Assembly: GCA_035544615.1 (NCBI GenBank)
Contig: DATKEA010000002.1
Location: 2,795 to 66,794, forward strand
Source of the DNA: Acidimicrobiia bacterium
GTDB lineage: Bacteria; Actinomycetota; Acidimicrobiia; Spongiisociales; ZC4RG35
DNA: 64,000 nt
Reading direction: 5' to 3'
Under the pieces are notes generated by a model. That model saw nothing but the letters and a program-made list of their open reading frames with translations, did no database searches and had not been told where the DNA came from. The translations under genes and the position numbers were made by a program. This document shows positions 10,602 to 40,635 of the stretch, piece after piece (within the stretch, counting starts at the first letter, position 1; each line of letters begins with the position of its first letter).

Positions 10602-13104
10602 TCGTCTCCGGTGAGTCGCCCTGTCGCAATGATGCGTTGACCTCGCCGTCAGTCACATAGGGGCCATACCGGCCAGTACGCACGGTGACCGGCTTGCCAC
10701 TGACGGGATCCGGGCCCAGATCCTTGAGTGGGCCTGAGGCGCGCTGACCGCGCCGCCGCGGCGGCTCGGCGAGGAGTTTGAGTGCCTCGTCCACGGTGAG
10801 GGCGAAAAGCTGTTCTTCGTTCTCCAGACTTCGGCGGTCGGCGCCTCGCTGGATGTAGGGCCCGTAACGCCCGTTCAGGGCGACGATGTCGACACCGTCG
10901 AGGTCGGTGCCCACGGTTCGGGGCAATGACAACAGCTTCAACGCGTTGTCGAGTGACAGCTCATCGAGCGACATGGTCTTGAGCAAGGAGGCTCGTTTCG
11001 GTTTCTCCTTGCCGCCTTCCTCCGCCTCGCCAAGCTGGACATACGGTCCAAACCGCCCTGTCTTGCCGAGCACGATCAGCCCGGTTTCGGGGTCGGTTCC
11101 GAGGATCTTGTCACCGGCGTTCTGGGTCTCGACGAGCTCCTTCGCCTTCTCCACGGTCAGTTCGTCGGGGGCGACGTCCTCGGGGATAGAAGCTCGCTCC
11201 TCGCCGATCTCCACGTACGGCCCGTACCGCCCGATGCGGGCCACAACGTCGTTGCCCGAGTCATCGACGCCGATCGGGATGGAGCCGATGGCTCGGGGGT
11301 CGATCTCGTCGAGCCGGGAAGCAACCTTGTGCTTGAGGCCATCATCGCCGAAATAGAAGGCGGTCAGCCAGGGGACCGACTGTTCCTCACCGGTGGCTAT
11401 ACGGTCGAGATCGTTCTCCATGGAAGCGGTGAAGCTGTAGTCGACAAGCTGGGGAAAGTGCTTTTCGAGCAGGGCCACCACCCCGAACGCGGTGAACGTG
11501 GGGACCAGTGCGGTGCCTTTCTTCCACACGTAACCCCGGTCCTGGATCGTCGACATGATCGAGGCATAGGTAGAGGGTCGCCCGACACCGAGCTCTTCCA
11601 GTCTCTGGACCAGCGAAGCTTCGGTGTAACGAGCCGGGGGCCGGGTCTCGTGCCCGGTCGGCTCGATTCTCTGCACCGCGAGTGAGTGACCTTCGGTCAG
11701 AGGGGGCAGGATGCTCTCCTTGTCGTCCAGCTCCGTGTCGGGGTCGTCGCTGCCTTGCACATAGGCTCGCAGGAACCCCGGAAACGTGATCGTCCGGCCA
11801 CTGGTGCCAAACACCGTCGGCCGACCGTCGCCGGCTGTGGCTCCGATGCGGGCCGACACGCTGACTCCCCTGGCGTCGGCCATCTGGGATGCAATGGTCC
11901 TCTTCCAGATGAGATCGTAGAGGCGGGCCTCGTCCGGGCCCACCGAGGCGGCAATCTGTTCCGGCGTGGGGAAGGTGTCGCCCGCCGGTCGAATCGCTTC
12001 GTGAGCCTCCTGCGCCCCTTTCACCTTCGAGGCATAGACGCGGGGTTTTGGCGACAGGTAATCCTGGCCGTACAGCTTCGAGATCTGAGAGCGGGCCGCG
12101 GCCATGGCGGTGCCCGACAGCGAAGTCGAGTCGGTGCGCATATAGGTGATGTGGCCGTTCTCGTAGAGACGCTGGGCGACGGACATCGTCCGGGACGAGG
12201 AAAAGCGAAGCTTTCTGCTTGCCTCTTGCTGCAGGGTCGATGTCCTGAAGGGCGGGTATGGCGATCTCTTGTATGGCTTCTCCTCGACCGATTGGACCTG
12301 GAATGAAGTGTCGAGAAGCGCCTCGGCGAGCGTTGTGGCCCCACTCTTGTCGAGAACGAGGACGCCCTGTTTCGGCGCTCCGTCGGCGCCGAAGTCCTTG
12401 CCGGTGGCCACGCGTTGCTCGTCCACCTGGAGGAGAGTTGCCTCAAAGGTCGAACCGAGGTCTGAGGAAGGAGCGAAGGTCCCCTCGAGGCTCCAATACG
12501 CCGCCGAGGTGAACGCCATGCGTTCTCTCTCCCGCTCGACCACGATCCTCACCGCGACGCTCTGGACCCTGCCCGCCGAGAGGCCCTGTTGGATCTTGCG
12601 CCACAGGACCGGCGAGACCTCGTAGCCGTAGAGCCGGTCGAGGATGCGACGTGCCTCTTGAGCCTGGACCAGCCGCTCGTCGAGCTGTCTCGGGTTGGCG
12701 AAGGCCTCCTCGATCGCCTGTTTGGTGATCTCATGGAACACCATCCGGTGAACCGGCACTTTGGGCTTCAAGGCCTCGGTGAGATGCCACGCGATCGACT
12801 CACCCTCGCGGTCTTCGTCGGTGGCCAGATAGAGCTCGTCCACCCCGGCCAGCATGTCCTTCAACATCTTGACCCGATCCCGTCGCTCCTTGGGGATCAC
12901 GTAAAGCGGTTCGAAGTCGTTGTCGACATTGACTCCCAATCGGGCCCAGACCTCGCCTTTGGCGCGGGCGGGTATCTCCGCAGCCGACCTGGGGAGGTCG
13001 CGGATGTGTCCCATCGAAGACTCGACCGCCACGTCCGATCCGAGGAATGCGGAGATGGTTCTGGCCTTCGTCGGCGACTCGACTATGACAAGGCTTTTGG
13101 GCAT
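10543..13104 (-). CDS. topA: DNA topoisomerase I
   Basis: Toprim start MPKSLVIVESPTKA and DEDREGE, the active-site region YITYMRTDS, and actinobacterial C-terminal GRYGPYV/GRFGPYV repeats. Confidence 0.95.
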   Translation of the reverse strand: MPKSLVIVESPTKARTISAFLGSDVAVESSMGHIRDLPRSAAEIPARAKGEVWARLGVNVDNDFEPLYVIPKERRDRVKMLKDMLAGVDELYLATDEDREGESIAWHLTEALKPKVPVHRMVFHEITKQAIEEAFANPRQLDERLVQAQEARRILDRLYGYEVSPVLWRKIQQGLSAGRVQSVAVRIVVERERERMAFTSAAYWSLEGTFAPSSDLGSTFEATLLQVDEQRVATGKDFGADGAPKQGVLVLDKSGATTLAEALLDTSFQVQSVEEKPYKRSPYPPFRTSTLQQEASRKLRFSSSRTMSVAQRLYENGHITYMRTDSTSLSGTAMAAARSQISKLYGQDYLSPKPRVYASKVKGAQEAHEAIRPAGDTFPTPEQIAASVGPDEARLYDLIWKRTIASQMADARGVSVSARIGATAGDGRPTVFGTSGRTITFPGFLRAYVQGSDDPDTELDDKESILPPLTEGHSLAVQRIEPTGHETRPPARYTEASLVQRLEELGVGRPSTYASIMSTIQDRGYVWKKGTALVPTFTAFGVVALLEKHFPQLVDYSFTASMENDLDRIATGEEQSVPWLTAFYFGDDGLKHKVASRLDEIDPRAIGSIPIGVDDSGNDVVARIGRYGPYVEIGEERASIPEDVAPDELTVEKAKELVETQNAGDKILGTDPETGLIVLGKTGRFGPYVQLGEAEEGGKEKPKRASLLKTMSLDELSLDNALKLLSLPRTVGTDLDGVDIVALNGRYGPYIQRGADRRSLENEEQLFALTVDEALKLLAEPPRRRGQRASGPLKDLGPDPVSGKPVTVRTGRYGPYVTDGEVNASLRQGDSPETIDIERAAELLAARRERVGK

Positions 13105-28073: not shown

Positions 28074-29546
28074 ATGACCGAGATACCCGACCCACTCGTT
28101 GCCGGTCGACGCCAGCACCATCAGGAGATCCTCGACTCCGGCGGCTACCCCCATCGCTACGAGCGAACCCACCGAGCGTCTGAGCTTCACCAACGGTTCT
28201 CCGAACTTGAGCCAGGCTCTGAGACCGACACCACGGTGTCCGTGGCTGGTCGGGTCATGCTCAAGAGGTCGTTTGGCAAGCTTCAGTTCGCCACACTTCA
28301 GGACGACTCGGGGACCATTCAGCTCTTCGTCGACCGATCGACGACAGGGGAGGCGATCTCGGACGAGTTTGCACGCGTCGATCTCGGCGATTGGGTCGGG
28401 GCTTCGGGCTCGATGATGACCACCAAGAAGGGCGAGCTCAGTGTTCGCGTCGCCGAGTTCACCATTCTCCAGAAGAGCCTGCGGCCCTTGCCCGAGAAGT
28501 GGCACGGGCTGCACGATGTCGAGTTGCGCAGCCGGCGCCGTTATCTCGATTTGATGGTCAACGATGAGGCGCGTCGGATTGCCCTGACACGGGCGGCGAT
28601 CGTGGGTGAGCTACGGCGACAGTTCGAATCCAGAGGGTTTGTCGAGGTGGAGACACCGGTGTTGCTCAGCCAGGCCACCGGGGCCAATGCTCGTCCCTTC
28701 GTCACCAAGCATCAAGCTCTCGACATGGAGATGTCTCTCCGGATCGCCACCGAGCTCCACCTCAAGAGGCTGGTCGTCGGCGGTCTGGAGAAGGTCTTCG
28801 AGATCGGGCGAATATTTCGCAACGAGGGAATCGACTCCACCCACAACCCCGAGTTCACCATGCTCGAGGCCTATCAGGCCCTTGCCGACTATTCCGACGT
28901 GATGACTCTGGTCGAGGAGGTCATCGCCGCAGTGGCCAGGACGGTTCTCGGGGCGACCAAGACAATGTTTCAGGGTGGCGAGCTCGACCTCTCCCCGCCA
29001 TTTCGCCGGGCGTCGATGTCCACGTTGGTTTCCGAGAAGCTAGGCCAAGAAGTGAACCTCGATACGCCATTGCAGGAGCTGGTGTCGGTGGCGAGGAGTG
29101 CGGGCGTCGATGTGGAAAGTGACTGGACGGCGTCCCGGATCTTGGCGGAGGTGTATGAGGGCATCGTCGAGAGTGGCATCTGGGAACCCACCTTCGTCAC
29201 CCATCCGCCAATCGAGGTTTCCCCCCTGGCCCGTCGCAATCGGCTGGACCCGCGTCTCGCCGATCGTTTTGAGCTGGTGATCGCCGGCTCCGAGTATGCA
29301 AATGCGTTCAGCGAGCTCAACGACCCTGACGACCAGCGTGCGCGGTTTGCGGCCCAGGCGGCGGCGCGCGAGGCCGGCGACGACGAGGCTCACCCAATTG
29401 ACGAGGATTACCTGCTGGCCCTCGAGTACGGGCTCCCCCCGACGGGCGGGCTGGGAATCGGGGTCGATCGCCTGGTGATGCTGCTCACTGACCAACCCCA
29501 TATCCGGGAGGTCATCTTGTTCCCGACCCTCAGACCCGACTACTAG
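28074..29546 (+). CDS. lysS: Lysine--tRNA ligase (class II)
   Basis: An OB-fold region (VSVAGRVMLKRSFGKLQFATLQDDSG) and class II motifs (FVEVETPVL, FRNEGIDSTHNPEFTMLE, GGLGIGVDRLVMLL). Confidence 0.95.
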   Translation: MTEIPDPLVAGRRQHHQEILDSGGYPHRYERTHRASELHQRFSELEPGSETDTTVSVAGRVMLKRSFGKLQFATLQDDSGTIQLFVDRSTTGEAISDEFARVDLGDWVGASGSMMTTKKGELSVRVAEFTILQKSLRPLPEKWHGLHDVELRSRRRYLDLMVNDEARRIALTRAAIVGELRRQFESRGFVEVETPVLLSQATGANARPFVTKHQALDMEMSLRIATELHLKRLVVGGLEKVFEIGRIFRNEGIDSTHNPEFTMLEAYQALADYSDVMTLVEEVIAAVARTVLGATKTMFQGGELDLSPPFRRASMSTLVSEKLGQEVNLDTPLQELVSVARSAGVDVESDWTASRILAEVYEGIVESGIWEPTFVTHPPIEVSPLARRNRLDPRLADRFELVIAGSEYANAFSELNDPDDQRARFAAQAAAREAGDDEAHPIDEDYLLALEYGLPPTGGLGIGVDRLVMLLTDQPHIREVILFPTLRPDY

Positions 29547-29556
29547 CGACGGGCCA

Positions 29557-30570
29557 CTATCTCTTGGCGGCGTCCACCCGCTCCAAGAGATAGCTCCCCA
29601 GTGTCTCCATGACCTTCTTTGCCTCCACTTCGGGTAGGCCGGCCAGGGCGTCCGAGGCGATCTCGAGTCGTCTTCTCGCTTCGGTCAAGGCGGTGTCGAT
29701 GTGGCCTCCTGCTCGCACGATGTCGATCACTTCGTTGACCACACTGTCCGGGTACGGATGATCGCTCTCCAAGAGCTCGCGGACCCGGGGCCCATCGCGG
29801 CCGATCAGCGCTTCCAGCACCGGCATGGTGAACTTGCCCTCCCGAATGTCGGAGCCTGCCGGTTTCCCGATCGTCTCGCCGTCGGCAACGAGGTCGAGGG
29901 CATCGTCGGCAATCTGGAACACCATGCCGACTTCCCAGGCCCAGCTGGAGAGGGACTCGACCACCGCCACGGGCGCGTCGGAGGCAAGAGCGCCGAGCCG
30001 AGCCGATGTCCGAATCAATGAGGCCGTCTTGCCGGCGATCACCTGCTCGTAGTCTTTGACGTCGTGGTCGAGATCGAAGTCGAGTTGCAGCTCGCGGGTC
30101 TGGCCTTGCACCAGATCGGCGTAGGTCGCGGCGAGCAGCCGCACCGACTCCTGACTGAGGTGGGTGGCTGCCACCTCCGAGGCCCTCGCCATGAGGAAGT
30201 CTCCGGCCAGAATCGCCACGGTGTTGGTCCAATTGGCGTTGACGGATGCCGCCCCACGCCTTATGTCCGCTTCGTCGATCACGTCGTCGTGATAGAGCGA
30301 GCCGACGTGGATCAGCTCAACCGAGACTCCTGCTTCGGTGGGCCGGTGATCCCGGGTATGGCCGAACTCGGCTGCGAGGAGGGCCAAGAGGGGTCGGAAC
30401 CGCTTGCCTCCGGCCAGGAGAAGGTGTTGTGCGATCTTGGTCAAATAGGGGTCGTCGGCGGCTGCCGCCTCCAGCAACCTCTCCTCGACACGGGCGAGAG
30501 AATCCCAGACAATTGGAATACGAATGAGACTTTGGAGGTCCTCCATCTGTGACGATGCTATTACGTGCAC
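29557..30570 (-). CDS. Polyprenyl diphosphate synthase (trans-isoprenyl, long-chain type)
   Basis: FARM LYHDDVIDEADIRRG and SARM FQIADDALD, plus GKxxGxD (IGKPAGSDIREGK). Confidence 0.9.
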   Translation of the reverse strand: MHVIASSQMEDLQSLIRIPIVWDSLARVEERLLEAAAADDPYLTKIAQHLLLAGGKRFRPLLALLAAEFGHTRDHRPTEAGVSVELIHVGSLYHDDVIDEADIRRGAASVNANWTNTVAILAGDFLMARASEVAATHLSQESVRLLAATYADLVQGQTRELQLDFDLDHDVKDYEQVIAGKTASLIRTSARLGALASDAPVAVVESLSSWAWEVGMVFQIADDALDLVADGETIGKPAGSDIREGKFTMPVLEALIGRDGPRVRELLESDHPYPDSVVNEVIDIVRAGGHIDTALTEARRRLEIASDALAGLPEVEAKKVMETLGSYLLERVDAAKR

Positions 30571-30646
30571 TTGGATGAGCAGCCAAGCCCGAAGGTCAGG
30601 AACCCGCCGGTGGTAAACTTGCGTATGTCAGGGTCAGGAGTCGAAG

Positions 30647-33133
30647 GTGTTTGAACGCTTCACAGATCGTGCCCGACGGGTCGTAGTCCTGGCCCAAGAA
30701 GAGGCACGCCTCCTAAATCACAACTACATCGGGACCGAGCACATCCTGCTCGGCCTGCTGAACGAGGGCGAAGGCATCGCGGCCCAGGCCCTGGAGAGCC
30801 TCGACATCGACCTCGCCTCGGTTCGTGAAGAGGTCGTGAAGATCATCGGCCAAGGTCAGCAATCGCCATCGGGTCATATCCCCTTCACCCCGAGGGCCAA
30901 GAAGGTGCTCGAGCTCAGTCTTCGTGAGGCTCTCCAGCTCGGTCACAACTACATCGGGACCGAGCACATCCTCCTCGGTCTGATACGCGAGGGCGAGGGC
31001 GTCGCCGCTCAAGTCCTTCAGCAGCTTGGCGCCGAGTTGCAGAAAGTGCGCCAAACGGTCATCCAGCTGCTCTCCGGTCCCGGAGGGAGCGAGCAACAAA
31101 CGTCTGAGCCATCGAGTTCGAGCAGCAGGGAGTCCTCCCCCGGAGGATCGACGGTGCTCGATCAGTTCGGGCGGAATTACACCCAGCTCGCCCGGGAGAA
31201 GAAGCTCGACCCCGTAATCGGCCGCACCCGCGAGATCGAGCGGGTCATGCAGATCCTGTCCCGACGCACCAAGAACAACCCCGTTCTCATCGGGGAGCCC
31301 GGGGTGGGCAAGACGGCCATCGTCGAAGGCTTGGCTCAGCGCATCGTGGCCAAAGACGTTCCCGAGAACCTCCAGGGCAAGAACCTCTACTCGCTCGACC
31401 TCGGGGCCCTGGTCGCAGGTTCGCGCTACCGGGGCGACTTCGAGGAGCGTTTGAAGAAGGTGCTCAAAGAGATCAAGAGCCGCGGCGACATCGTTCTCTT
31501 TATCGACGAGATCCACACCCTGGTCGGTGCCGGCGCGGCTGAAGGCGCCATCGACGCCGCATCGATCCTCAAGCCGATGCTGGCCCGTGGTGAGCTGCAG
31601 ACTGTCGGTGCCACAACGCTCGAGGAGTACCGCAAGTACCTGGAGAAGGACTCCGCCCTCGAGCGCCGCTTCCAGCCGATCCAGGTCGACGAGCCATCGG
31701 TCAGCGAGACCATCCAGATCTTGCTCGGTCTCAAGGATCGCTATGAGGCTCACCACTCGGTGCGATTCACCGATCAAGCCATCGTCAGCGCGGCCAATCT
31801 GGCCGACCGCTATCTGTCCGATCGGTTCCTCCCCGACAAGGCGATCGACCTCATCGACGAGGCAGGCAGCCGGACCCGGATCATGCGGACCAGCGCCGTT
31901 CCCGAGATCACTGCGATCGACGAGAAGCTGTCCAACCTCCGCAAGGACAAGCAGGACGCCGTCGCCCGTGAGAACTACGAGCGGGCCGCCAATCTCCGCG
32001 ACGAGGAGCGGATCCTCCTCAGCGACCGCGCGGTCAAGGAGGCCGACGAAGCCGAATCAGGCTGGGTCATCGATGAGGAAGAGATAGCTGAGGTTCTCGC
32101 CCAGTGGACCGGGATCCCCGTCCACCGACTCACCGAGGAGGAGACCGCCCGCCTCGTCCACATGGAGGACGAGCTGCACAAGAGGATCATCGGTCAGCAC
32201 GACGCGATAACTGCTGTGTCCAAGGCGATCAGGCGGACTCGTGCCGGGCTCAAAGACCCGCGCCGTCCATCCGGTTCGTTCATCTTCCTGGGCCCCTCGG
32301 GTGTGGGCAAGACAGAGACGGCCAAGGCTCTGGCCCAGTTCCTCTTCGGTCAGGAAGACGCACTCATCCAGCTCGATATGTCCGAGTACATGGAGAAGCA
32401 CACCGTGAGTCGCCTGGTCGGCTCACCTCCCGGCTACGTCGGTTACGACGAGGGCGGCCAGCTGACCGAAGCAGTGAGACGCAAGCCGTTCTCCGTGGTC
32501 CTCTTCGATGAGATAGAGAAGGCCCACCCCGACGTGTTCAACACGCTTCTCCAGATCCTCGAGGAGGGCCGTCTGACCGATGCCCAGGGTCGGACTGTCG
32601 ACTTCAAGAACACCGTCATCATCATGACCTCCAACCTCGGCACACGCGACCTTCACAAGAAGTCAGTTGGCTTCCATGCCGAGGACGAGGAGATGGGCTA
32701 CGAGCACATGAAGGAGCGGGTTACTGACGAGCTCAAGAAGCACTTCCGTCCGGAGTTCATCAACCGGCTCGACGAGATCATCGTGTTCCACGAGCTGGCG
32801 ATGGACGAGCTGAAGTCGATCGTCGACCTCATGTTGGAGCGGGTGCGCGATCAACTAGAGGCCCAGCATCTCGACCTGGTCCTGACCGACGACGCCAAGG
32901 AACACCTCGGGTCCCGAGGCTATGACCCGGAGCTCGGAGCCAGGCCGCTGCGTCGCGCGATCCAGCGTCTGCTCGAAGACCCGCTCTCGGAGCGGGTGCT
33001 GCTAGGCGAGTTCAAGGCCGGGATCACGATCCTGGTCGGCGTCGACAGTGAAAACGACGAGTTGACCTTCGAAGCAGTGGCCCCGTCCGACACCCCGGAG
33101 AGGCCCCAAGTGGAGATGGCCGGACAGGACTGA
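30647..33133 (+). CDS. clpC: ATP-dependent Clp protease ATP-binding subunit ClpC
   Basis: GTG start giving [13 protein letters not shown]. Duplicated Clp-N repeats, two AAA modules (GEPGVGKTA; GPSGVGKTE) and a UVR-like linker ([12 protein letters not shown]). Confidence 0.95.
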
Positions 33134-33190
33134 ACGCCTAAAGAGGCATTGGCTTTCAGCCGATGTTGATGGGGTCACCGAACCATCAAT

Positions 33191-33844
33191 ATGCCCCTAC
33201 TCGTTGTCATCCTCGCGCTAACTTCCGCCTTCGCAACTGGCCCGGCCCCTGACTACACGCCGGTCAGCGACGAGGCGTACACCCTCGATCTCGAGATCGA
33301 CGGGTATGTCAACGGCGCAATGGACAAGAACCGCATGATGACGCTCAACGGCTGCACCCTCGAAAGAGATGCGGCCTACATGTACGCCTTGCTGATGGAA
33401 GCGGCGGAGCGGGACGGCATCGAGCTCGGGTGGGAGGACTGCTATCGCTCCTACAACGTCCAGAAAGCCTCGTACGAGAAGCGTTGCCCCTACGAGGACC
33501 AGCCTGTATTCGAGACCGATCCCCTGACCGGCGAGAAGATCCAGACCGGGTCGAAGGCGGTCCGGGTGTGCTCCGGCCCGCCGATCGCTCGTGCCGGGTT
33601 CTCCAATCACGGTTGGGGACGCGCCGTCGACTTCACCAGCGGACGGAGCGTCTTGAGCTGCAACGACCGCGCCTTCCGCTGGCTGCAAGGCAATGCTCAT
33701 CGCTTCGGCTGGGTCCATCCAAGGTGGGCTGCGTGTGACCGCTCGACACGCGAGCCCTGGCACTGGGAGTACGCCGGTGTCACCGACCCCAATCTCGTCG
33801 ACTACAACCGTCTCAACCTGGAGCTGCTCAAGTCGGTCGAATAG
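33191..33844 (+). CDS. VanY-like D-alanyl-D-alanine carboxypeptidase family (peptidase M15B) protein
   Basis: Signal-like N-terminus, zinc motifs FSNHGWGRAVDF and EPWHWEY, and HRFGWVHP. Confidence 0.8.
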   Translation: MPLLVVILALTSAFATGPAPDYTPVSDEAYTLDLEIDGYVNGAMDKNRMMTLNGCTLERDAAYMYALLMEAAERDGIELGWEDCYRSYNVQKASYEKRCPYEDQPVFETDPLTGEKIQTGSKAVRVCSGPPIARAGFSNHGWGRAVDFTSGRSVLSCNDRAFRWLQGNAHRFGWVHPRWAACDRSTREPWHWEYAGVTDPNLVDYNRLNLELLKSVE

Positions 33845-33934
33845 GGCGGGTTCCCGGGTCCCGGGAAAACAGGTTCGCCGATCGGGTGCGGTCGGTGTGA
33901 TTTAACCCACCCACCGCCCCCGTTCTAAGCTCCG

Positions 33935-35378: not shown

Positions 35379-36731
35379 ATGAGCGACGACACCAAGAGCG
35401 TCGAGACCCTGGACGTCTGGGTCGCCGGCACCGAGGAACCACAGTTCAGCCCCACCGACGAGGGCGCCCAAGAGATCTCCGACCACGAATCCGACGCCCG
35501 ACTCGACGAGCAGTTCGGCAGGGTCGTCGAAGACGACTACGTCTTCGACGACTCGGTCGGTGATGAAGACGAACGGATGATCCTCAACATGGGGCCGCAA
35601 CATCCGTCCACCCACGGGGTGCTGCGACTTCAGATCGAGCTCGAGGGCGAGATAATTCGACGTACCAAGCCGATCATCGGCTACCTCCACACCGGCATGG
35701 AGAAGACGGCGGAGCAGCTCACCTTCTCCCAGGGTGGCACCAATGTCACCCGCATGGACTACCTGGCCCCATTCCACAACGAGCTGGCCCACGCCCTGGC
35801 GGTCGAGCGTCTGCTCGAGATCGAAGTGCCTCCACGGGCGGCTGCGATTCGGGTCTTGCTCACCGAGTTGAACCGCTGCTCATCGCATCTGGTGGCGCTG
35901 GCCACCAACGGCATGGACATCGGCGCGGTCTCGATGATGATCTACGGGTTCCGGGAGCGGGAGCAGATTCTCGCTTTCTTCGAGAAGACCACGGGACTCA
36001 GGATGAATCACAACTTCATACGGCCCGGAGGGGTCGCCGCCGACCTTCCACCCGGTTGGAAGGACGACGTGGCCGAGATCCTCGACGAGCTGCCCAGACG
36101 GCTAAAGCAATACGACGACCTCCTTCAGGACAACCCGATTTGGGGGTCGCGGACCAGGGGGGTCGGCGTCATCTCGGCTGAGGAGGCGATCGCCTACGGG
36201 ATCACCGGGCCTCCGCTTCGTGCCGCCGGAGTCGATTGGGACCTGCGCAAGGCCTTCCCCTACAGCGGGATCGAGCAGTACGAGTTCGAGGTCCCGGTGG
36301 GCGAGCACGGGGACGTCTACGACCGCTACCGGATTCGGGTCGATGAGATCATCCAGTCGTTGCGCATCGTGGAGCAGGTGATGGACTCGATGCCGAAAGG
36401 TGACTACCGGGTCGACGACCGAAAGGTGACTCCGCCCCCTCGCGCCCGGATCGACGAGTCGATGGAAGCCCTGATCCATCACTTCAAGCTGTTCACCGAG
36501 GGGTTCAAGGTCCCCCCGGGGGAGACCTACGTCGCCGTGGAGTCGCCTCGTGGCGAGCTGGGTTGCTATCTGGTCTCGGACGGCATGGCGCGCCCTTATC
36601 GGATGCACACCAGAGCCCCGTCCTTCGTCAACCTGCAAGCGCTGCCAATCGCCATGGCCGACTCTTTGATGGCTGACACCGTGGCCACCATCGCCTCCAT
36701 GGATCCGGTGATGGGCGACGTCGACCGCTAG
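35379..36731 (+). CDS. nuoD: NADH-quinone oxidoreductase subunit D
   Basis: MILNMGPQHPSTHGVLRL, ESPRGELGCYLVSDG and a C-terminal DPVMGDVDR. The N-terminal extension is acidic. Confidence 0.95.
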   Translation: MSDDTKSVETLDVWVAGTEEPQFSPTDEGAQEISDHESDARLDEQFGRVVEDDYVFDDSVGDEDERMILNMGPQHPSTHGVLRLQIELEGEIIRRTKPIIGYLHTGMEKTAEQLTFSQGGTNVTRMDYLAPFHNELAHALAVERLLEIEVPPRAAAIRVLLTELNRCSSHLVALATNGMDIGAVSMMIYGFREREQILAFFEKTTGLRMNHNFIRPGGVAADLPPGWKDDVAEILDELPRRLKQYDDLLQDNPIWGSRTRGVGVISAEEAIAYGITGPPLRAAGVDWDLRKAFPYSGIEQYEFEVPVGEHGDVYDRYRIRVDEIIQSLRIVEQVMDSMPKGDYRVDDRKVTPPPRARIDESMEALIHHFKLFTEGFKVPPGETYVAVESPRGELGCYLVSDGMARPYRMHTRAPSFVNLQALPIAMADSLMADTVATIASMDPVMGDVDR

Positions 36732-36749
36732 CACCCGCCTACCGGCTTA

Positions 36750-36802
36750 CCGCTTACCTGAGGTACGTGGCGCCATATATGGCGCCACCCCGACAGAGAA
36801 AG
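36750..36802. repeat. Left arm of a 53-bp imperfect inverted repeat (partner 39909-39961)
   Basis: ccgcttacctgaggtacgtggcgccatatatggcgccaccccgacagagaaag. Its reverse complement matches 39909-39961 at 48/53 positions. It contains the perfect 22-nt palindrome GTGGCGCCATATATGGCGCCAC. Confidence 0.9.
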
Positions 36803-36857
36803 CCCGCGACCCCACCGGGGCTCACGTTTTCAGACCACCACCGATCTCCAACCCAGA

Positions 36858-37838
36858 TCACTCGCCTCTTGAGATCGTTGTCGGTACGGTCACCAACCCG
36901 TCCACTGAGCCTTCATCGAGCGAGGGAAACCCGATGGATGGGGGCGCCATCTCGACCAGCATTCCATAGTCGTCGTACGTCGAGAGTTCGAGGGGGTACA
37001 GATTGGGGACGATTCGCCCGAATTGATCTCTCTCGAAGGCCACCAGGCCATATCCGAAGTCGAAGCTCTCTCGGTTGGGGTCGAAGACGGCTTCTTGGTA
37101 GACGTAATCCGGCAGTGTCCGCAACGGCCGGCCCCGAGAATCGAAGAGGAGCACTTCCACCGGGTGTCCCTCCAGGTCGTAGGCGAAGATGTTCTCCACG
37201 GGCTCTCCGTTGGCTCCCGTGAGCCGGTCGATGTGCAACACCGGGTCCTCGAAGTCCTGCTGCACCCAGCTGTATATCGGATTGAGGAGGCTGGCGAGGA
37301 GAGCGATAGCGGCAACCACCGAGTAGAGGGCTGATGCAGTCTGCCTGCGGCTGGTCGATCGCCCTTGTTCGAGCCAGACCGAGATACCGGTTGCGACCGC
37401 AGCCAGCACCAGTCCGGTCAGACTGCTCCCACCGAAGCGAGGGATGGGGAAACGCTCGAAGGTCTCGCCGTAGTAGAGCATCCCCCAAACGGTCACCAGG
37501 AGCCATCCGCGGACCCAGATCCACGCCGGTCGGAATCGCGACCATTGGATCACCTCGGCTACTCGGGCCGACCTCTCCTCTATCACCGCCCGGGCATGGC
37601 GGAGACGAGTGAATCCTCTCTTCCGCTGTGGCTCGTCGAGGCCGGCGCTATGGCGGAACTCTGCCACGAACATCCCGGCATCCCCGAGCGTGGAAACGAC
37701 CTGGTCATCGTCCAGCTCAGCCAGATGAGCTTCGAGATCCTGGATCACTTCTTCCCGGTCCTCGTCGGAGAGATCCGAGAGTCCTTCGGCGACTCCTGCC
37801 AGGTAGGCAGCTTTGACCGATGAGAGTGTGATGCTCAT
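36858..37838 (-). CDS. HAAS/DUF1700-type membrane protein (PadR-associated sensor) with C-terminal extracytoplasmic domain
   Basis: N-terminus YLAGVAEGLSDLSDEDREEVIQDLEAHLAE matches the DUF1700/HAAS pattern that pairs with PadR. It has ~4 TM helices and a ~130-aa C-terminal soluble domain. ATGA overlap with the padR stop. Confidence 0.7.
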   Translation of the reverse strand: MSITLSSVKAAYLAGVAEGLSDLSDEDREEVIQDLEAHLAELDDDQVVSTLGDAGMFVAEFRHSAGLDEPQRKRGFTRLRHARAVIEERSARVAEVIQWSRFRPAWIWVRGWLLVTVWGMLYYGETFERFPIPRFGGSSLTGLVLAAVATGISVWLEQGRSTSRRQTASALYSVVAAIALLASLLNPIYSWVQQDFEDPVLHIDRLTGANGEPVENIFAYDLEGHPVEVLLFDSRGRPLRTLPDYVYQEAVFDPNRESFDFGYGLVAFERDQFGRIVPNLYPLELSTYDDYGMLVEMAPPSIGFPSLDEGSVDGLVTVPTTISRGE

Positions 37839-38161
37839 TGTCCTTTATCCTCCAACAGGTCGTTCATCACCGTGGCGAAACCGGCCCAGGTCTTCCTCGA
37901 GGTCTCCAGCATGTGGGTGCCCGCTGCGTTTATCCCGTAGTACTTTCGGGCCGGGCCCTCTTCGGATGGGACTATCTCCGAGGTCAGGTACCCACCCCCA
38001 AAGAGACGACGAAGCGTTCCGTAGACCGAGGCATCCCCGACATCGTCGAACCCGGCGGTTCGGAGCTGTCTGACCAGGTCGTATCCGTAAGTCCTGCCTC
38101 CGCTGAGGACGGCGAGCACCGCCGTGTCCAGGACTCCCTTGAGTAGTTGAGTCGAGTCCAT
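37835..38161 (-). CDS. padR: PadR-family transcriptional regulator
   Basis: 108 aa. LKGVLDTAVLAVLSGGRTYGYDLVRQL...VYGTLRRL is the winged-helix PadR signature. Confidence 0.85.
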   Translation of the reverse strand: MDSTQLLKGVLDTAVLAVLSGGRTYGYDLVRQLRTAGFDDVGDASVYGTLRRLFGGGYLTSEIVPSEEGPARKYYGINAAGTHMLETSRKTWAGFATVMNDLLEDKGQ

Positions 38162-38176
38162 TGCTCCTTCCCTGTC

Positions 38177-38216
38177 GCTACTGCGTGTCAGACACTACCA
38201 CGCAATGCGGAGTAGC
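38177..38216. promoter_or_regulatory. Nested palindromes just upstream of padR (candidate PadR operator)
   Basis: GCTACTGCG (38177-85) pairs with CGGAGTAGC (38208-16) at 8/9. This flanks the palindrome GTGTC-a-GACAC (38185-95), 16-55 nt upstream of the padR ATG, in a lower-GC intergenic region. Confidence 0.4.
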
Positions 38217-38420
38217 AATAGGCTTCTTGGGGCTTTCGGGCGGCTAAGTGGTGAACTCGGATCGCAAAGCTTCAGAGAAGGCGGTCGATCACTCGGAGTA
38301 ACTGCTTGATCAGAGGCAAACCCTTGAGTCGCTGTGCAAAGGTCACAGGATTGGACTCATCAACCACCGCACGTGTCGCATCCTTCGCTTTGCTCACAAG
38401 TCACAGCCTACCGGCGCCGG

Positions 38421-39884
38421 TCACGGCCAGCCCTGGTGATGCAATCGGAACTCACGCACCTCCCCGCTGGTCGACGGGCCCCAGGTCATGGTGGGAACCG
38501 GGTGCTCCACTCTCGCCGCCTCCAGATCCGCAACGGTGAACCCAACCGGTTCGGTGATGGGCACGATGTCAAAGAGGTTGGCGGCGTTCCATCCGAGGAT
38601 CTTGGCCTTCACCCCTCGAGTCAGTTCTGGATAACCCCACCGCTCTCGCAGGGCGGCAGGTATCTGGAACGCCCGGAAGGCGTCGATCTGACCCTGTGGC
38701 GACCCGTAGAAGATCGAGTCGGTCCCCCAGAGCACATTGTCCTCGCCGAAAGCGACGAGGAGCTTGCCCAACACGTGAGCGGCTTCATCGGGTCGTCGCA
38801 GCAGATGCCACCAGGTCGAGCCGATCTCGGCGTAAACGTTCTCCCCCGGACCGACCCCTGACTTCTGCAGCGAGTCGATGAGGCGGTTGATCCCGGTGTG
38901 CGCTGTCTCCGACGTGAATGGGCCTTCGCGCGCGCCGACCTCGAATCCGGAGTGATAGACCACGATCTTCACATGGGGATGAGCTCGCGCCGCAGGTCCC
39001 ACGTCCTCGGGCGACCCGTAGCGGGCCTGATTGGAGAGACCCTTGTGCACGAAGAGGATCGGGGATCCCAACCTCTCGATTTCGTCGAAGAACCGGTTGG
39101 CCACTTGGGGGAGGCCGGGTTCGTGGTCGTCGAGCCACCAGTGGATCCCATTGGGGAAGTGGGTGAAGGTCTTCCAGCCGGAGATTGTGTTTTCGTTCAC
39201 GGTGCGCTCCATCTCCTCCACGACCGACTCGATCGGTGCTATTTGAGGCAGCGCTAGGGCATTGACCACCACCCTCTCGTCGCCTGACAGGGACTGGACC
39301 ATCCGTCGGGTGTCCTCCATCACCTCAGCGGACAGCGGGCTTCCCTCGGGCAGGATCGGCAATCCGGATAGGGCAACCATGGTGGTATCCGATCTGACAA
39401 AGATCTCCTCGAGGAAATGGTTGGTGGCAAAACAGGCGCGAGGGTCGTCCTCTTCCTCACAGCGTGCCTGAGGAAAGTTGCGGCCCCAGAACCAGTCCCC
39501 CCTCGTCGACGGGTCGAGGTCGTATTCGAGTAGGTGACCCTGAACGTCGAACACGAACTGGGCCGGCCCCAGGATCGAGCGTGCCGCGTCGGTATCGTGA
39601 CGTGCCGTCGGGTCGAAGGGGTACCACAGCCCGGGGGCGACGCCCAACGCTCGAGCCATGGTGTTGTCGATGGCAGTGAGCGAGACGGCCAGCGCACATG
39701 CCGAGCGAAGGAACTCGCGACGGCTCAGCCCGGTGCGCCGGATGCCTTCGTCGATCCCGGCGTGCGCCGCTTTCTCCATCTCCCGGCGGACCGGTGTGAT
39801 CGGCTCGGGCTCGTACTCCCCGTTGGAGCATTGCCCGAAGGCGATTGGCAGACCCGGGTCATCGTCGCGCCACGATCGAGACAT
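38421..39884 (-). CDS. Amidohydrolase-family (metal-dependent TIM-barrel hydrolase, PF04909-like) protein with twin-arginine signal
   Basis: Tat motif SRREFLRSACALAVSLTAIDNTMA, and VHKGL...VVYHSGFE...VLWGTDS typical of amidohydrolase-2-like proteins. The start is uncertain: ATG 39884 or ATG 39779, the latter giving a normal-length signal. The ORF-track start at 39932 lies inside the IR. Confidence 0.7.
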   Translation of the reverse strand: MSRSWRDDDPGLPIAFGQCSNGEYEPEPITPVRREMEKAAHAGIDEGIRRTGLSRREFLRSACALAVSLTAIDNTMARALGVAPGLWYPFDPTARHDTDAARSILGPAQFVFDVQGHLLEYDLDPSTRGDWFWGRNFPQARCEEEDDPRACFATNHFLEEIFVRSDTTMVALSGLPILPEGSPLSAEVMEDTRRMVQSLSGDERVVVNALALPQIAPIESVVEEMERTVNENTISGWKTFTHFPNGIHWWLDDHEPGLPQVANRFFDEIERLGSPILFVHKGLSNQARYGSPEDVGPAARAHPHVKIVVYHSGFEVGAREGPFTSETAHTGINRLIDSLQKSGVGPGENVYAEIGSTWWHLLRRPDEAAHVLGKLLVAFGEDNVLWGTDSIFYGSPQGQIDAFRAFQIPAALRERWGYPELTRGVKAKILGWNAANLFDIVPITEPVGFTVADLEAARVEHPVPTMTWGPSTSGEVREFRLHHQGWP

Positions 39885-39908
39885 CGGTCTGATTCTGCTC
39901 CACTTCCA

Positions 39909-39961
39909 CCTTCTCTGTCTGGGTGGCGCCATATCTGGCGCCAGATACCTCAGGTAAGCGG
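39909..39961. repeat. Right arm of the 53-bp imperfect inverted repeat (partner 36750-36802)
   Basis: ccttctctgtctgggtggcgccatatctggcgccagatacctcaggtaagcgg. It contains the self-complementary pair TGGCGCCA-tatc-TGGCGCCA. Confidence 0.9.
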
Positions 39962-40011
39962 CGCGAGCTGGTTTCGCTCGGGCTAGCGGGGCTACCTAAT
40001 CTCCGGCATCC

Positions 40012-40635
40012 ATGAGTCAATGGTCGGAGGCCACCGAGGAGCGCGCCCGGGAGATCATCTCGCGTTACCCGCAGAAGCGCTCGGCGGTGATGCCGCTCCT
40101 CTACCTGGCGATGGCCGAGGACGGTTATCTGACCAATGATGGGATGGAAGAGGTGGCGCGTTGGGTCGGGATCACTCCGGCCCAGGTCCACGCCGTGGCC
40201 AGCTTCTACACCATGTACAAACGGGAGCCGACCGGTCGCTATCTGATCTCCTGCTGCACCTCGATCTCGTGCATGCTGTTGGGCGGAGACGACATCCTCC
40301 ACGCGGTGGAAGACGAGTCGGGGGTTCCTCATGGCGAGACCGACTCGGACGGTTTTCTCTCCGTTGAGCATGTCGAGTGCATCGGCGCCTGCGGGGGAGC
40401 TCCTGCGGTGCAGGTGAACTACGAGCTGATCGAAGGGGTCACCTCCGAGCGTGCCCGGGATCTGGTCAGATGGCTCAAGGGGGCTCGACCCGAGGTGATC
40501 AACGGGGACGAGATGCAGGAGCTCTTCGGCGGGGTGAAGAGCTTCGACTGGGCGATCAAGGAGGAAGAGGGGGCTTTGGGCCCCTACCCGGCATTTCAGT
40601 CATTGGGCACCGTCGGGCGCGAGGGAGACGCTTGA
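40012..40635 (+). CDS. nuoE: NADH-quinone oxidoreductase subunit E
   Basis: YPQKRSAVMPLLYLAM, 2Fe-2S cysteines CCTSISCML and CIGACGGAP. Confidence 0.9.
   Translation: MSQWSEATEERAREIISRYPQKRSAVMPLLYLAMAEDGYLTNDGMEEVARWVGITPAQVHAVASFYTMYKREPTGRYLISCCTSISCMLLGGDDILHAVEDESGVPHGETDSDGFLSVEHVECIGACGGAPAVQVNYELIEGVTSERARDLVRWLKGARPEVINGDEMQELFGGVKSFDWAIKEEEGALGPYPAFQSLGTVGREGDA

What the first reader, a model, noticed from the sequence alone, without database searches (positions are those of the whole stretch)
36750..39961. Inverted-repeat-bounded three-gene cassette splits the Complex I (nuo) operon between nuoD and nuoE
Seen directly in the sequence:
- The reverse complement of 36750-36802 matches 39909-39961 at 48/53 positions (37/40 over the outer 40 nt).
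- Each arm carries its own palindrome: GTGGCGCCATATATGGCGCCAC on the left, and TGGCGCCA-tatc-TGGCGCCA on the right.
- The left arm begins 19 nt after the nuoD stop, and the right arm ends 50 nt before the nuoE ATG.
- The 3.2 kb in between encodes three genes, all antisense to the 14 nuo genes: a HAAS/DUF1700 sensor, PadR and a Tat-signal amidohydrolase.
- No transposase or integrase is present.
- Just outside both arms there is a similar string. On the left it is GCTAGCacccgcCTACC at 36727-43, which includes the nuoD stop. On the right it is GCTAGCggggCTACC at 39982-96. This could be a degraded duplication of the original nuoD-nuoE junction.

Established knowledge: in characterised nuoA-N operons (E. 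coli, M. tuberculosis) nuoD and nuoE are adjacent and co-transcribed.

Inference: this is either a non-autonomous, transposase-less, IR-bounded cargo element, or a REP-like hairpin pair that captured genes. In either case nuoE-N would need independent expression, and nuoABCD transcription would converge on the cassette.
Basis: partly seen in the sequence, partly recalled or inferred. Interest (0 to 1): 0.8.

Follow-up and report, generated by a model that had tools for sequence, protein, structure and literature searches.

The report
REP-like repeat pair brackets nuo islet
The inverted repeats around the three genes that split the Complex I operon are real, but they are two copies of a short palindromic repeat scattered through these soil Acidimicrobiia genomes, not the private ends of a jumping gene cassette, and the gene islet they enclose is old and variable.

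Summary
In detail: arms at 36750-36802 and 39909-39961 match at 48/53 as an inverted repeat. They enclose HAAS, PadR and a Tat-signal amidohydrolase, antisense to nuoA-N, with no transposase.

The arm is a roughly 52-nt unit: TACCTGAGGTA, then the hairpin GT(A/G)GCGCC-ATATAT-GGCGC(T/C)AC, then GACAGAGAA. It belongs to a dispersed REP/REPIN-like family in related Acidimicrobiia MAGs, with 156 copies in 0.82 Mb of sampled contigs. Adjacent copies are almost always outward-facing pairs (47 of 48). Of these, 36 are roughly 120-nt doublets with unrelated spacers, usually just after stop codons, and 11 enclose 0.35-3.1 kb of unrelated genes. No target duplication was seen.

At nuoD|nuoE the arms sit at the edges of a long-lived islet holding 0-6 genes in different species. 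Some islets lack arms, and some sites are empty. The amidohydrolase has diverged in step with NuoE/F. No cargo was seen at more than one site.

So this is a REP-like pair bracketing an old islet, not a cassette-specific mobile element. The gene-bracketing habit and the absence of a detectable RAYT are the unusual parts. Interest is moderate.

The parts
35379..36731 (+). nuoD (Complex I 49-kDa subunit), the last gene before the islet
   Evidence: Pfam PF00346, E=2e-117. 100% identical to an Acidimicrobiia MAG protein.
36750..36802 (+). Left arm, one unit of the dispersed REP-like family, read from outer end to inner end on the + strand. It consists of TACCTGAGGTA, the hairpin 36767-36788, and the tail GACAGAGAA.
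   Evidence: nhmmer family profile score 61.5 bits. Aligned with 111 other copies.
36805..37900 (.). Block replaced by a divergent allele, covering HAAS and the 3' part of padR. Identity to 96-98% relatives is only 40-70% here, against about 95% on either side. The left breakpoint lies at the inner edge of the arm.
   Evidence: blastn HSP ends and sliding identity. HAAS is 50% identical while the amidohydrolase is 97% identical.
36858..37838 (-). HAAS-domain membrane sensor (326 aa), convergent with nuoD
   Evidence: Pfam PF22564. Small, very diverse family of 81 clusters.
37835..38161 (-). PadR-family regulator (108 aa). Its stop codon overlaps the HAAS start codon.
   Evidence: Pfam PF03551. 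NCBIfam PadR models match below their cutoffs.
38216..38420 (.). Non-coding insert specific to this window, with lower G+C, between the padR upstream region and the amidohydrolase stop. Relatives have only about 66 nt here.
   Evidence: G+C of 0.578 in the 600-nt composition window 37800-38399, the lowest in the region.
38421..39884 (-). Amidohydro_2-family hydrolase (487 aa) with the twin-arginine motif SRREFL
   Evidence: Pfam PF04909. Translation. Start codon as called in relatives.
39909..39961 (-). Right arm, a second unit of the same family, read from outer end to inner end on the - strand. It lies 24 nt upstream of the amidohydrolase start.
   Evidence: 52.2 bits. 90% identical to the left arm, at about the 99th percentile of random family pairs.
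39971..40011 (+). Conserved nuoE leader, GTTTCGCT-N14-TACCTAATCTCCGG-N5-ATG (window spacing). It has no Shine-Dalgarno sequence. It is a candidate internal promoter or leaderless start for nuoE-N.
   Evidence: Invariant blocks in 12 lineages, including empty sites. Any function is inferred. The sigma-70 consensus scan found nothing.
40012..40635 (+). nuoE, the first gene after the islet. nuoF-N follow to 52076.
   Evidence: Pfam PF01257. nuoF-N identified.

Best explanation
The two arms are a pair of units of a lineage-specific REP/REPIN-like palindromic repeat family. They are not the termini of a transposon that carried the three genes in.

The family unit is about 52 nt. It has a strongly conserved TACCTGAGGTA, a hairpin with an invariant GCGCC/GGCGC top and a covarying base, and a GACAGAGAA tail. 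It occurs tens of times per genome in a clade of soil Acidimicrobiia. It almost always occurs as outward-facing inverted pairs whose outer ends abut gene ends.

At the nuoD|nuoE junction one such pair sits at the two edges of an old, variable gene islet. The core of the islet is PadR-HAAS, usually with the amidohydrolase. Other lineages add or substitute UPF0060, FTHFS, a 112-aa ORF, MarR and a SnoaL-like gene.

Shown:
- The arms are generic to the family.
- The pair orientation rule holds almost without exception.
- There is no target duplication.
- The islet content varies inside fixed arms.
- The cassette has co-diverged with the nuo genes.
- The two arms at a locus evolve in concert.

Inferred:
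- The islet grew and turned over inside the spacer of a doublet. That spacer is the only dispensable DNA between the nuoD stop and the conserved nuoE leader.
- The conserved arms also serve as portable homology for recombination. One allelic-replacement breakpoint lies exactly at an arm edge.
- The hairpins act on single-stranded nucleic acid. They would cap the nuoABCD transcript 3' end and insulate it from the antisense islet.
- nuoE-N restarts from its own conserved leader.
For: Dispersal:
It gave 97 stretches, nearly all in Acidimicrobiia MAGs, including the MAG of the 98% relative L005.
- A family profile finds 156 non-overlapping copies in 0.82 Mb.

Pair rule:
- Among adjacent copies within 4 kb, 47 are (+,-), none are (-,+), none are (+,+) and one is (-,-).
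- 36 pairs are doublets of 98-155 nt with unrelated spacers of 10-55 nt. 11 pairs enclose 347-3105 nt.

Position:
- 73 of 146 arms have an ORF of at least 80 codons ending within 25 nt of the outer end, against 8% for random positions.
- 16 of 31 doublets lie between convergent gene ends.

Hairpin:
- 87.9% of cells are paired and 5 of 10 pairs show double changes.

Target duplication:
- None was found.

Same site, different content inside the arms:
- The three-gene cassette occurs in the window, L002-9, L069, L102, L110 and L118-121.
- FTHFS occurs in L012.
- A 112-aa ORF occurs in L097.
- A six-gene islet occurs in L128.
- FTHFS plus the amidohydrolase, with only the right arm, occurs in L129.

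Age:
- Amidohydrolase identity of 81-88% tracks NuoE/F identity of 83-87%.
- Filled lineages are scattered over the NuoE+F tree.

Persistence:
- An arm pair around an AbiEi_4-DUF559 gene is kept at an orthologous site. The flanks are about 71% identical while the arms are 81-91% identical.
- In a 57% orthologue the pair is a diverged variant whose two copies are still 90% alike.

Concerted evolution at this locus:
- The window arms are 0.90 identical, against 0.755 for random family pairs.
- L002-5 carry the same nested repeat mirrored in both arms.

Arm edge as a recombination boundary:
- Identity to close relatives collapses at 36804/36805.
Against: - No cognate enzyme was found. The RAYT test was only a regular-expression scan of 0.95 Mb, so family membership in the strict REP-RAYT sense is open.
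- Doublet spacers are unrelated in sequence. REPINs that replicate as units normally share theirs.
- Partner arms in doublets are less alike (0.70) than random arms. This points to two subtypes or to an unknown way of forming pairs.
- The order of events is unresolved. L016 and L114 carry islets without arms, and L129 has one arm. The arms could have been added around a pre-existing islet.
- No arm-only doublet was seen at the nuoD|nuoE site.
- The RNA-level role is not demonstrated. There is no U-tract terminator at the arms, and the spacers are not generally strong hairpins (mean z of -0.9).
- The sample of loci was selected with a strict arm pattern, which inflates the apparent conservation of the pattern positions.
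Confidence: 0.62

Rival explanations
1. Mobile insertion cassette (MIC-like). The arms are terminal inverted repeats recognised in trans by a transposase encoded elsewhere. Arms plus cargo transposed as a unit into the nuoD-nuoE spacer. The roughly 120-nt doublets are deletion derivatives (MITEs).
For: - Outward-facing pairs enclose tightly fitted single genes or gene sets with no transposase.
- Relatives with empty sites lack both arms and cargo, and the homology break lies within a few nt of the arm ends.
- The arm pair behaves as a unit.
Against: - None of the 47 pairs examined shows a target-site duplication.
- Doublet interiors are all different, unlike copies of one MITE.
- Every cargo seen more than once is at an orthologous site.
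- The cassette co-diverges with the nuo genes and occurs without arms.
- No IS with these ends is present among the 11 cargo pairs.
Confidence: 0.12
2. Secondary bracketing. The islet was already present between nuoD and nuoE, as in L016 and L114. An active repeat-spreading mechanism later deposited one unit at each of its edges. This could be an unidentified enzyme that targets gene ends and places units in pairs.
For: - Islets without arms and with one arm exist.
- Doublet spacers are unique local DNA with a preferred length of about 19-23 nt. This would be expected if units are laid down around target DNA rather than copied as whole doublets.
- Units strongly prefer positions 4-9 nt after stop codons.
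Against: - The right arm abuts a gene start (nuoE), not a stop.
- Arms occur in both deep branches of the NuoE+F tree. Several independent bracketing events, or an early one followed by losses, are therefore needed.
- No enzyme has been identified.
Confidence: 0.2
3. Invertible or excisable segment. The palindromic cores are sites for a site-specific recombinase that flips or excises the 3.1-kb segment, giving phase variation of the islet or of nuoE-N expression.
For: - The core looks like a recombinase site, with roughly 10-nt inverted half-sites around ATATAT.
- The arms are in inverted orientation.
- Empty sites exist.
Against: - The PadR-HAAS-amidohydrolase genes are antisense to nuo in every lineage sampled, more than 12.
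- No recombinase gene is in or beside the islet.
- The same units occur as about 120-nt doublets at dozens of loci, where inversion would do nothing.
- Empty sites retain no arm.
Confidence: 0.03
4. Operator sites. The palindromes are binding sites for the cassette's own PadR regulator.
For: - PadR proteins bind palindromes.
- The right arm lies in the amidohydrolase upstream region.
Against: - The identical units flank FTHFS, an alpha/beta hydrolase, an AHSA1-like protein and a DUF559 gene, and form doublets at loci with no PadR.
- The left arm lies beyond the 3' end of the operon.
- The stem base covaries rather than being conserved.
Confidence: 0.02

Closest known systems
REP / BIME sequences and REPINs (REP doublets forming hairpins) with their RAYT transposases, in Enterobacteria, Pseudomonas and Stenotrophomonas (PMC2817692, PMC3116915)
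   Same: - The units are short extragenic imperfect palindromes with compensatory stem changes.
- They are dispersed in many copies.
- They are mostly arranged as inverted doublets, with a spacer less conserved than the units.
- They often lie right after stop codons.
- They are vertically persistent at orthologous sites.
- A GT(A/G)G motif is present.
[quoted passage not shown]
   Different: - No RAYT was found.
- The unit is longer (about 52 nt) and has two palindromes plus a tail.
- The GT(A/G)G lies inside the stem rather than 5' of it.
- Doublet spacers are unrelated between copies.
- Copy number is tens, not hundreds.
- About a quarter of the pairs enclose ordinary genes, up to six of them.
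- The host is Acidimicrobiia, whereas RAYT/REP systems were described mainly in Proteobacteria.
Mobile insertion cassettes (for example MIC231 of Bacillus cereus) and MITEs, in the ISfinder sense (PMC3129680, PMC5444012)
   Same: Inverted-repeat ends enclose passenger genes with no transposase. Short gene-free versions coexist with them.
   Different: - There are no target-site duplications.
- No parent IS with the same ends was found.
- The interiors of the short forms are unrelated.
- No copy of the same cassette occurs at two sites.
- The cassette is inherited vertically.
Flexible genomic islets at conserved sites, exchanged by homologous recombination in flanking core genes
   Same: One chromosomal site holds alternative gene sets in related species. 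Gene modules are gained, lost and replaced, and empty sites exist.
   Different: The site lies inside the otherwise contiguous nuoA-N operon. The islet is delimited by a conserved repeat pair, and one recombination breakpoint coincides with the edge of a repeat.

Membership tests
REP/REPIN-RAYT system | Short imperfect palindrome whose stem is kept by compensatory changes | tested here: met
   The helix at columns 16-25/30-39 is 87.9% paired. 5 of 10 pairs show changes on both sides. Slid controls give 27-45% pairing.
REP/REPIN-RAYT system | Extragenic, dispersed and multi-copy within a genome | tested here: met
   97 or more stretches were found in related MAGs, about 20 in one MAG. A profile finds 156 copies. 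Copies lie next to gene ends. Copy number looks like tens per genome, lower than for classic REPs.
REP/REPIN-RAYT system | Predominantly inverted doublets with a less conserved spacer | tested here: met
   47 of 48 adjacent pairs are outward-facing, and 36 are doublets of 98-155 nt. The spacers are not merely less conserved but unrelated.
REP/REPIN-RAYT system | GT(A/G)G head 5' of the palindrome | tested here: inconclusive
   GT(A/G)G occupies alignment columns 17-20, but it is part of the stem and pairs with C(T/C)AC. It could be coincidence.
REP/REPIN-RAYT system | A cognate Y1 (HUH) transposase gene flanked by the repeats | tested here: inconclusive
   None of the 11 bracketed cargos is a Y1 transposase. 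A motif scan of 0.95 Mb found none. Whole genomes could not be searched.
MITE (transposon-derived) | Target-site duplication flanking the terminal inverted repeats | tested here: not met
   The flanks of 47 pairs show no direct repeat. Symmetry extends only as (C)GC(T/G)|TACC, which is part of the inverted repeat.
MITE (transposon-derived) | Copies share an internal sequence derived from a parent IS | tested here: not met
   The doublet interiors (10-55 nt) are unrelated to one another.
Mobile insertion cassette | Inverted-repeat ends enclosing passenger genes and no transposase | tested here: met
Mobile insertion cassette | Evidence of transposition: the same cassette at different sites, a target duplication, or ends shared with an IS | tested here: not met
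   All recurrences are orthologous. There is no target duplication. The cassette co-diverges with the nuo genes.
Invertible (phase-variable) segment | Both orientations present in populations, and a recombinase nearby | tested here: not met
   The shared islet genes have one orientation in more than 12 lineages. There is no recombinase. Read-level data were not available.
Intrinsic terminator | G+C-rich stem followed by a U-tract | tested here: not met
   The scan found no terminator-like site at either arm. The tail after the hairpin is GACAGAGAA.
Rfam RNA families | Match to a curated covariance model | tested here: not met
   No match with E up to 1 in 36500-40300.

The most novel reading that the evidence does not exclude
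The arms are the cis sites of an undescribed, RAYT-independent REP-like system of Acidimicrobiia. In this reading, outward-facing pairs form chromosomal 'brackets' that accumulate and exchange genes at fixed sites, acting as a cassette platform without an integron or a transposase. The system might be serviced by the AbiEi-HTH/DUF559 nuclease. That gene is itself bracketed by arms next to groEL in four lineages, with arms that co-evolve as a pair.
Probability: 0.12. Interest if true: 0.8.

Novelty: new variant of a known kind. Interest (0 to 1): 0.45.

Why it matters
REP-type repeats are best known from Proteobacteria, where they depend on RAYT transposases. This looks like a comparable repeat family in uncultured soil Acidimicrobiia. 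It has an unusual habit: its inverted pairs enclose ordinary genes. At one site they frame a replaceable islet in the middle of the normally contiguous Complex I operon.

If the pairs actively promote gene capture or exchange, that would be a new route for making small flexible islets. If they do not, the case still shows three things:
- A conserved respiratory operon can tolerate an antisense insertion for a long time.
- Inverted repeats around genes should not be read as transposon ends without a genome-wide copy count.
- A concrete site (the left arm and the nuoE leader) is available for testing how such operons are transcribed.

Tried and rejected
- **PadR operator idea.** Rejected, because the units occur at dozens of PadR-free loci.
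Rejected. The right-hand copy is the ancestral nuoE leader, and no pair shows a duplication.
- **Extended outer/tail helix within the arm**, suggested by the single-sequence fold. Not supported by the alignment: 69.5% paired, with variable partners opposite invariant bases.
- **Doublet as a bidirectional intrinsic terminator.** The spacers are not generally stable hairpins (mean z of -0.9; 7 of 33 below -2), and there is no U-tract.
- **Rfam.** No family matched.
- **Viral contigs.** The arm pattern is absent.
- **RAYT motif scan.** Nothing was found, but the test is weak.
- **AbiEi_4-DUF559 gene as a multi-site 'master' element.** All arm-bracketed copies (L044/L073, L022, L130/131) turned out to be one orthologous locus beside groEL. 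There is therefore no evidence of mobility. Persistence and paired co-evolution of its arms were noted.
- **Literature search.** Searches for the repeat sequence and for REP-like elements in Actinobacteria found no description of this family.
- **G-T versus A-C mismatch asymmetry in the stem.** The count is 74 against 42. This hints at function on the outer-to-inner strand, but the copies are not independent, so I do not lean on it.

Full report
**1. The observation**

The repeat finder gives arms 36750-36800 and 39911-39961, 51 nt and 92% complementary. Over 53 nt the match is 48/53. The 22-nt palindrome GTGGCGCCATATATGGCGCCAC and the outer 16-mer occur nowhere else in the 64-kb window at up to 3 mismatches, and never in shuffled sequence.

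The genes are as described:
- nuoD, 35379-36731
- a HAAS-domain protein, 36858-37838, - strand
- PadR, 37835-38161, - strand
- an Amidohydro_2 protein with an SRREFL twin-arginine motif
- nuoE, from 40012

nuoA-N are all present on the + strand. No transposase or integrase domain is in the cassette.

Relatives call the amidohydrolase at 487 aa. Its start is therefore ATG 39884, and the right arm is upstream of the gene, not inside it.

**2. Where the window comes from, and what relatives carry at this junction**

NuoD is 100% identical to a protein of an Acidimicrobiia MAG, and relatives exist at every identity level from 98% down to 86%. I fetched the nuoD or nuoE neighbourhoods of relatives. 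I also ran one targeted metagenome scan for 'right arm abutting the nuoE leader'. Gene maps are; sequence read-outs are. Together these give the following states of the nuoD|nuoE site:

| State | Loci |
|---|---|
| Arms plus HAAS-PadR-amidohydrolase | window, L002-L009, L069, L102, L110, L118-L121 |
| PadR next to the right arm | L122 |
| Arms plus FTHFS on the + strand | L012/L013 |
| FTHFS plus amidohydrolase, right arm only | L129 |
| Arms plus a single 112-aa ORF | L097 |
| Arms plus six genes (SnoaL-like, MarR, the 112-aa ORF, HAAS, PadR, amidohydrolase) | L128 |
| Cassette plus UPF0060, no arms | L016 |
| PadR-HAAS plus an unknown gene, no arms | L114 |
| Empty, no arms, spacer of 49 or 112 nt | L014/L015 and L010/L011 |

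The junction is therefore a small variable islet. It is usually, but not always, delimited by the two arms. The arms stay at the extreme edges whatever lies inside.

**3. Age of the islet**

Amidohydrolase identity to the window is 81-88% in L102, L110, L016 and L069. This tracks NuoE/NuoF identity of 83-87%. On a neighbour-joining tree of NuoE plus NuoF(1-277), the cassette-bearing lineages are scattered and the empty ones are nested among them. The tree has no bootstrap support, so this is indicative only.

The simplest reading is that the islet has been at this site since before these species diverged. Modules have since been lost, added and replaced. This is not a recent insertion.

**4. 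The arms are a generic dispersed repeat**

I scanned one genome per species (GTDB) with TACCTGAGGTANNNNGCGCCNNNNNNGGCG.
- Nearly all stretches are in Acidimicrobiia MAGs.
- About 20 are in one MAG and about 9 in another.
- Two lie elsewhere in the MAG that carries the 98% relative L005.

A few MAGs labelled Acidobacteriota share orthologous flanks with the Acidimicrobiia ones, so that label is doubtful. The pattern is absent from viral contigs.

An alignment of 112 distinct copies gives the consensus CGCTTACCTGAGGTACGTAGCGCCATATATGGCGCTACGnnGACAnAGAA. A profile built from the copies finds 156 non-overlapping units in 0.82 Mb of arm-selected loci.

*Caveat:* the loci were recruited with a strict pattern, so the conservation of the pattern positions is overstated. 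Partner arms found only by the profile show a second subtype (GGTT[TC]AT instead of GGTACGT).

**5. How the units are arranged**

Among adjacent units within 4 kb, 47 are outward-facing (+,-). None are (-,+), none are (+,+) and one is (-,-). The pair is therefore a unit.
- 36 pairs are doublets of 98-155 nt. Their spacers are 10-55 nt, most often 19-23 nt, and are unrelated in sequence.
- 11 pairs enclose 347-3105 nt.

The enclosed genes are unrelated to one another:
- the nuo islets
- an AbiEi_4-DUF559 protein
- an AHSA1/SRPBCC protein
- an alpha/beta hydrolase
- two segments without recognisable ORFs

None of the pairs shows a target-site duplication.

Half of all arms (73 of 146) have a long ORF ending within 25 nt of their outer end, mostly 4-9 nt away. 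The figure for random positions is 8%. 16 of 31 doublets lie between convergent gene ends.

The central hairpin is 87.9% paired, with compensatory changes at its base and an invariant GCGCC/GGCGC top. The extended outer/tail pairing suggested by single-sequence folding is not supported. There is no Rfam match and no terminator-like U-tract. Spacers are not generally stable hairpins.

**6. Persistence and concerted evolution**

The AbiEi_4-DUF559 gene beside groEL is bracketed by arms in three species. Their flanks are only about 71% identical, yet the arms are 81-91% identical and the element length is unchanged at 1044 nt.

In a more distant orthologue (57% protein identity) the same gene is bracketed by a diverged arm variant. 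Its two copies are still 90% alike.

At the nuo site the window's two arms are 0.90 identical. Random family pairs average 0.755, with a 99th percentile of about 0.90. Partners within doublets average 0.70.

In L002-L005 a second, G-rich dispersed repeat is nested in the centre of the palindrome of both arms, in mirror image. In L006-L008 it is in the left arm only. The two arms of a pair therefore exchange sequence.

**7. An arm edge as a recombination boundary**

Against its 96-98% relatives, the window is about 95% identical through nuoC-D and the left arm. Identity then drops to 40-70% exactly at 36804/36805 and recovers inside padR. HAAS is only 50% identical, whereas the amidohydrolase is 97% identical.

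The HAAS family is small and very diverse. PadR-HAAS pairs also occur on a prophage- or plasmid-like contig and at an unrelated chromosomal site. The window therefore carries a swapped-in HAAS allele, and one crossover lies at the conserved arm.

**8. Expression of nuoE-N**

All 12 lineages compared, including the empty ones, keep GTTTCGCT-N15-TACCTAWTCTCCGG-N6 immediately before the nuoE start. None has a Shine-Dalgarno sequence. I infer, without proof, that this is an internal promoter or a leaderless start. This would explain why the junction tolerates insertions. The E. coli-type promoter scan finds nothing there.

**9. Comparison with known systems**

The closest match is the REP/BIME/REPIN class. 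Its features, taken from PMC2817692 and PMC3116915, are:
- extragenic palindromes with compensatory changes
- inverted doublets with less conserved spacers
- positions right after stop codons
- vertical persistence
- one gene (the RAYT) flanked by two inverted REPs

The differences here are:
- No RAYT was found (weak test).
- The unit is longer and composite.
- Spacers are unrelated between copies.
- Copy number is tens per genome.
- A quarter of the pairs enclose ordinary genes.

MITE and mobile-insertion-cassette membership fails on three counts: no target duplication, no shared interiors, and no multi-site copies. I found no description of this repeat in the literature held.

**10. Verdict**

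The 'cassette-specific mobile element' reading is not supported. The 'REP-like pair around captured genes' reading is supported.

Two things remain open: how pairs come to enclose genes, and whether a dedicated enzyme exists. I rate the finding as a new variant of a known kind, of moderate interest (0.45).

Noticed in passing
L006:8390-8442; L002:7813-7980 and 10918-11024; also L019, L020, L023, L046, L055, L076, L077: A second dispersed repeat family is present. It is G-rich, with units such as GGGGGGAGTACCCCGAAGGGGGG. It is nested exactly in the centre of the arm palindrome. In L006-8 it is in the left arm only. In L002-5 and L119 it is mirrored in both arms.
   Followed up: partly
window 36805-37900: The window's HAAS gene, with the 3' part of padR, is a divergent allele. 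It is 50% identical at protein level to that of relatives whose NuoD is 96-98% identical. The identity break lies at the inner edge of the left arm.
   Followed up: yes
window 38216-38420: A roughly 205-nt non-coding insert with lower G+C lies between the padR upstream region and the amidohydrolase stop. It is found only in this window and in an identical Logan contig (L001). Relatives have about 66 nt here.
   Followed up: partly
window 39971-40011, and the same position in 11 other loci: The nuoE leader GTTTCGCT-N15-TACCTAWTCTCCGG-N6-ATG is invariant, has no Shine-Dalgarno sequence, and is present even at empty sites. It may be an internal promoter or leaderless start, or an unknown RNA element.
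   Followed up: partly
L044:6793-7836, L073:1241-2284, L022:1-1044, L130:2913-3965: An AbiEi_4-HTH plus DUF559/MTES_1575 nuclease-like gene between an LLM oxidoreductase and groEL is tightly bracketed by arms in three species. In a 57% orthologue it is bracketed by a diverged arm variant, ACCTAATGCACCAGGGGCCATATCTGGCCC, whose two copies remain 90% alike.
   Followed up: partly
L115:5678-6987: A PadR-HAAS pair 50% identical to the window's HAAS sits on a contig with Prim-Pol, D5_N and DUF5906 genes. The contig looks like a prophage or plasmid, so the regulator-sensor module also travels on mobile DNA.
   Followed up: no
L006:1-5500 versus window 29500-33900: The genes upstream of nuoA differ between genomes with 98% identical NuoD. 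The window, L002 and L009 have a ClpC-like ATPase and VanY. L006-8 have a serpin, a B3_4 domain protein and a DUF222 protein. There is a rearrangement boundary just upstream of nuoA.
   Followed up: no
window 36738-36756: A small tandem duplication, TACCGGCT/TACCGCT, lies between the nuoD stop and the left arm. It is absent from L009.
   Followed up: no
Alignment A1 (for example L024:1181-1236, L053:2071-2126, L084:2738-2793): There are two arm subtypes, GGTACGT and GGTT[TC]AT after TACCTGAGG. Doublets often combine one of each, so partners are less alike (0.70) than random arms (0.755). This is reminiscent of the Y/Z units in E. coli BIMEs.
   Followed up: partly
L019, L024, L030 and others (CAVVCY01, CAWENM01): MAGs labelled 'uncultured Acidobacteriota' carry the repeat and share orthologous gene ends with Acidimicrobiia MAGs. 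The taxonomic label is probably wrong. One Gammaproteobacteria-labelled MAG contig (L071) carries a single arm-like sequence.
   Followed up: no
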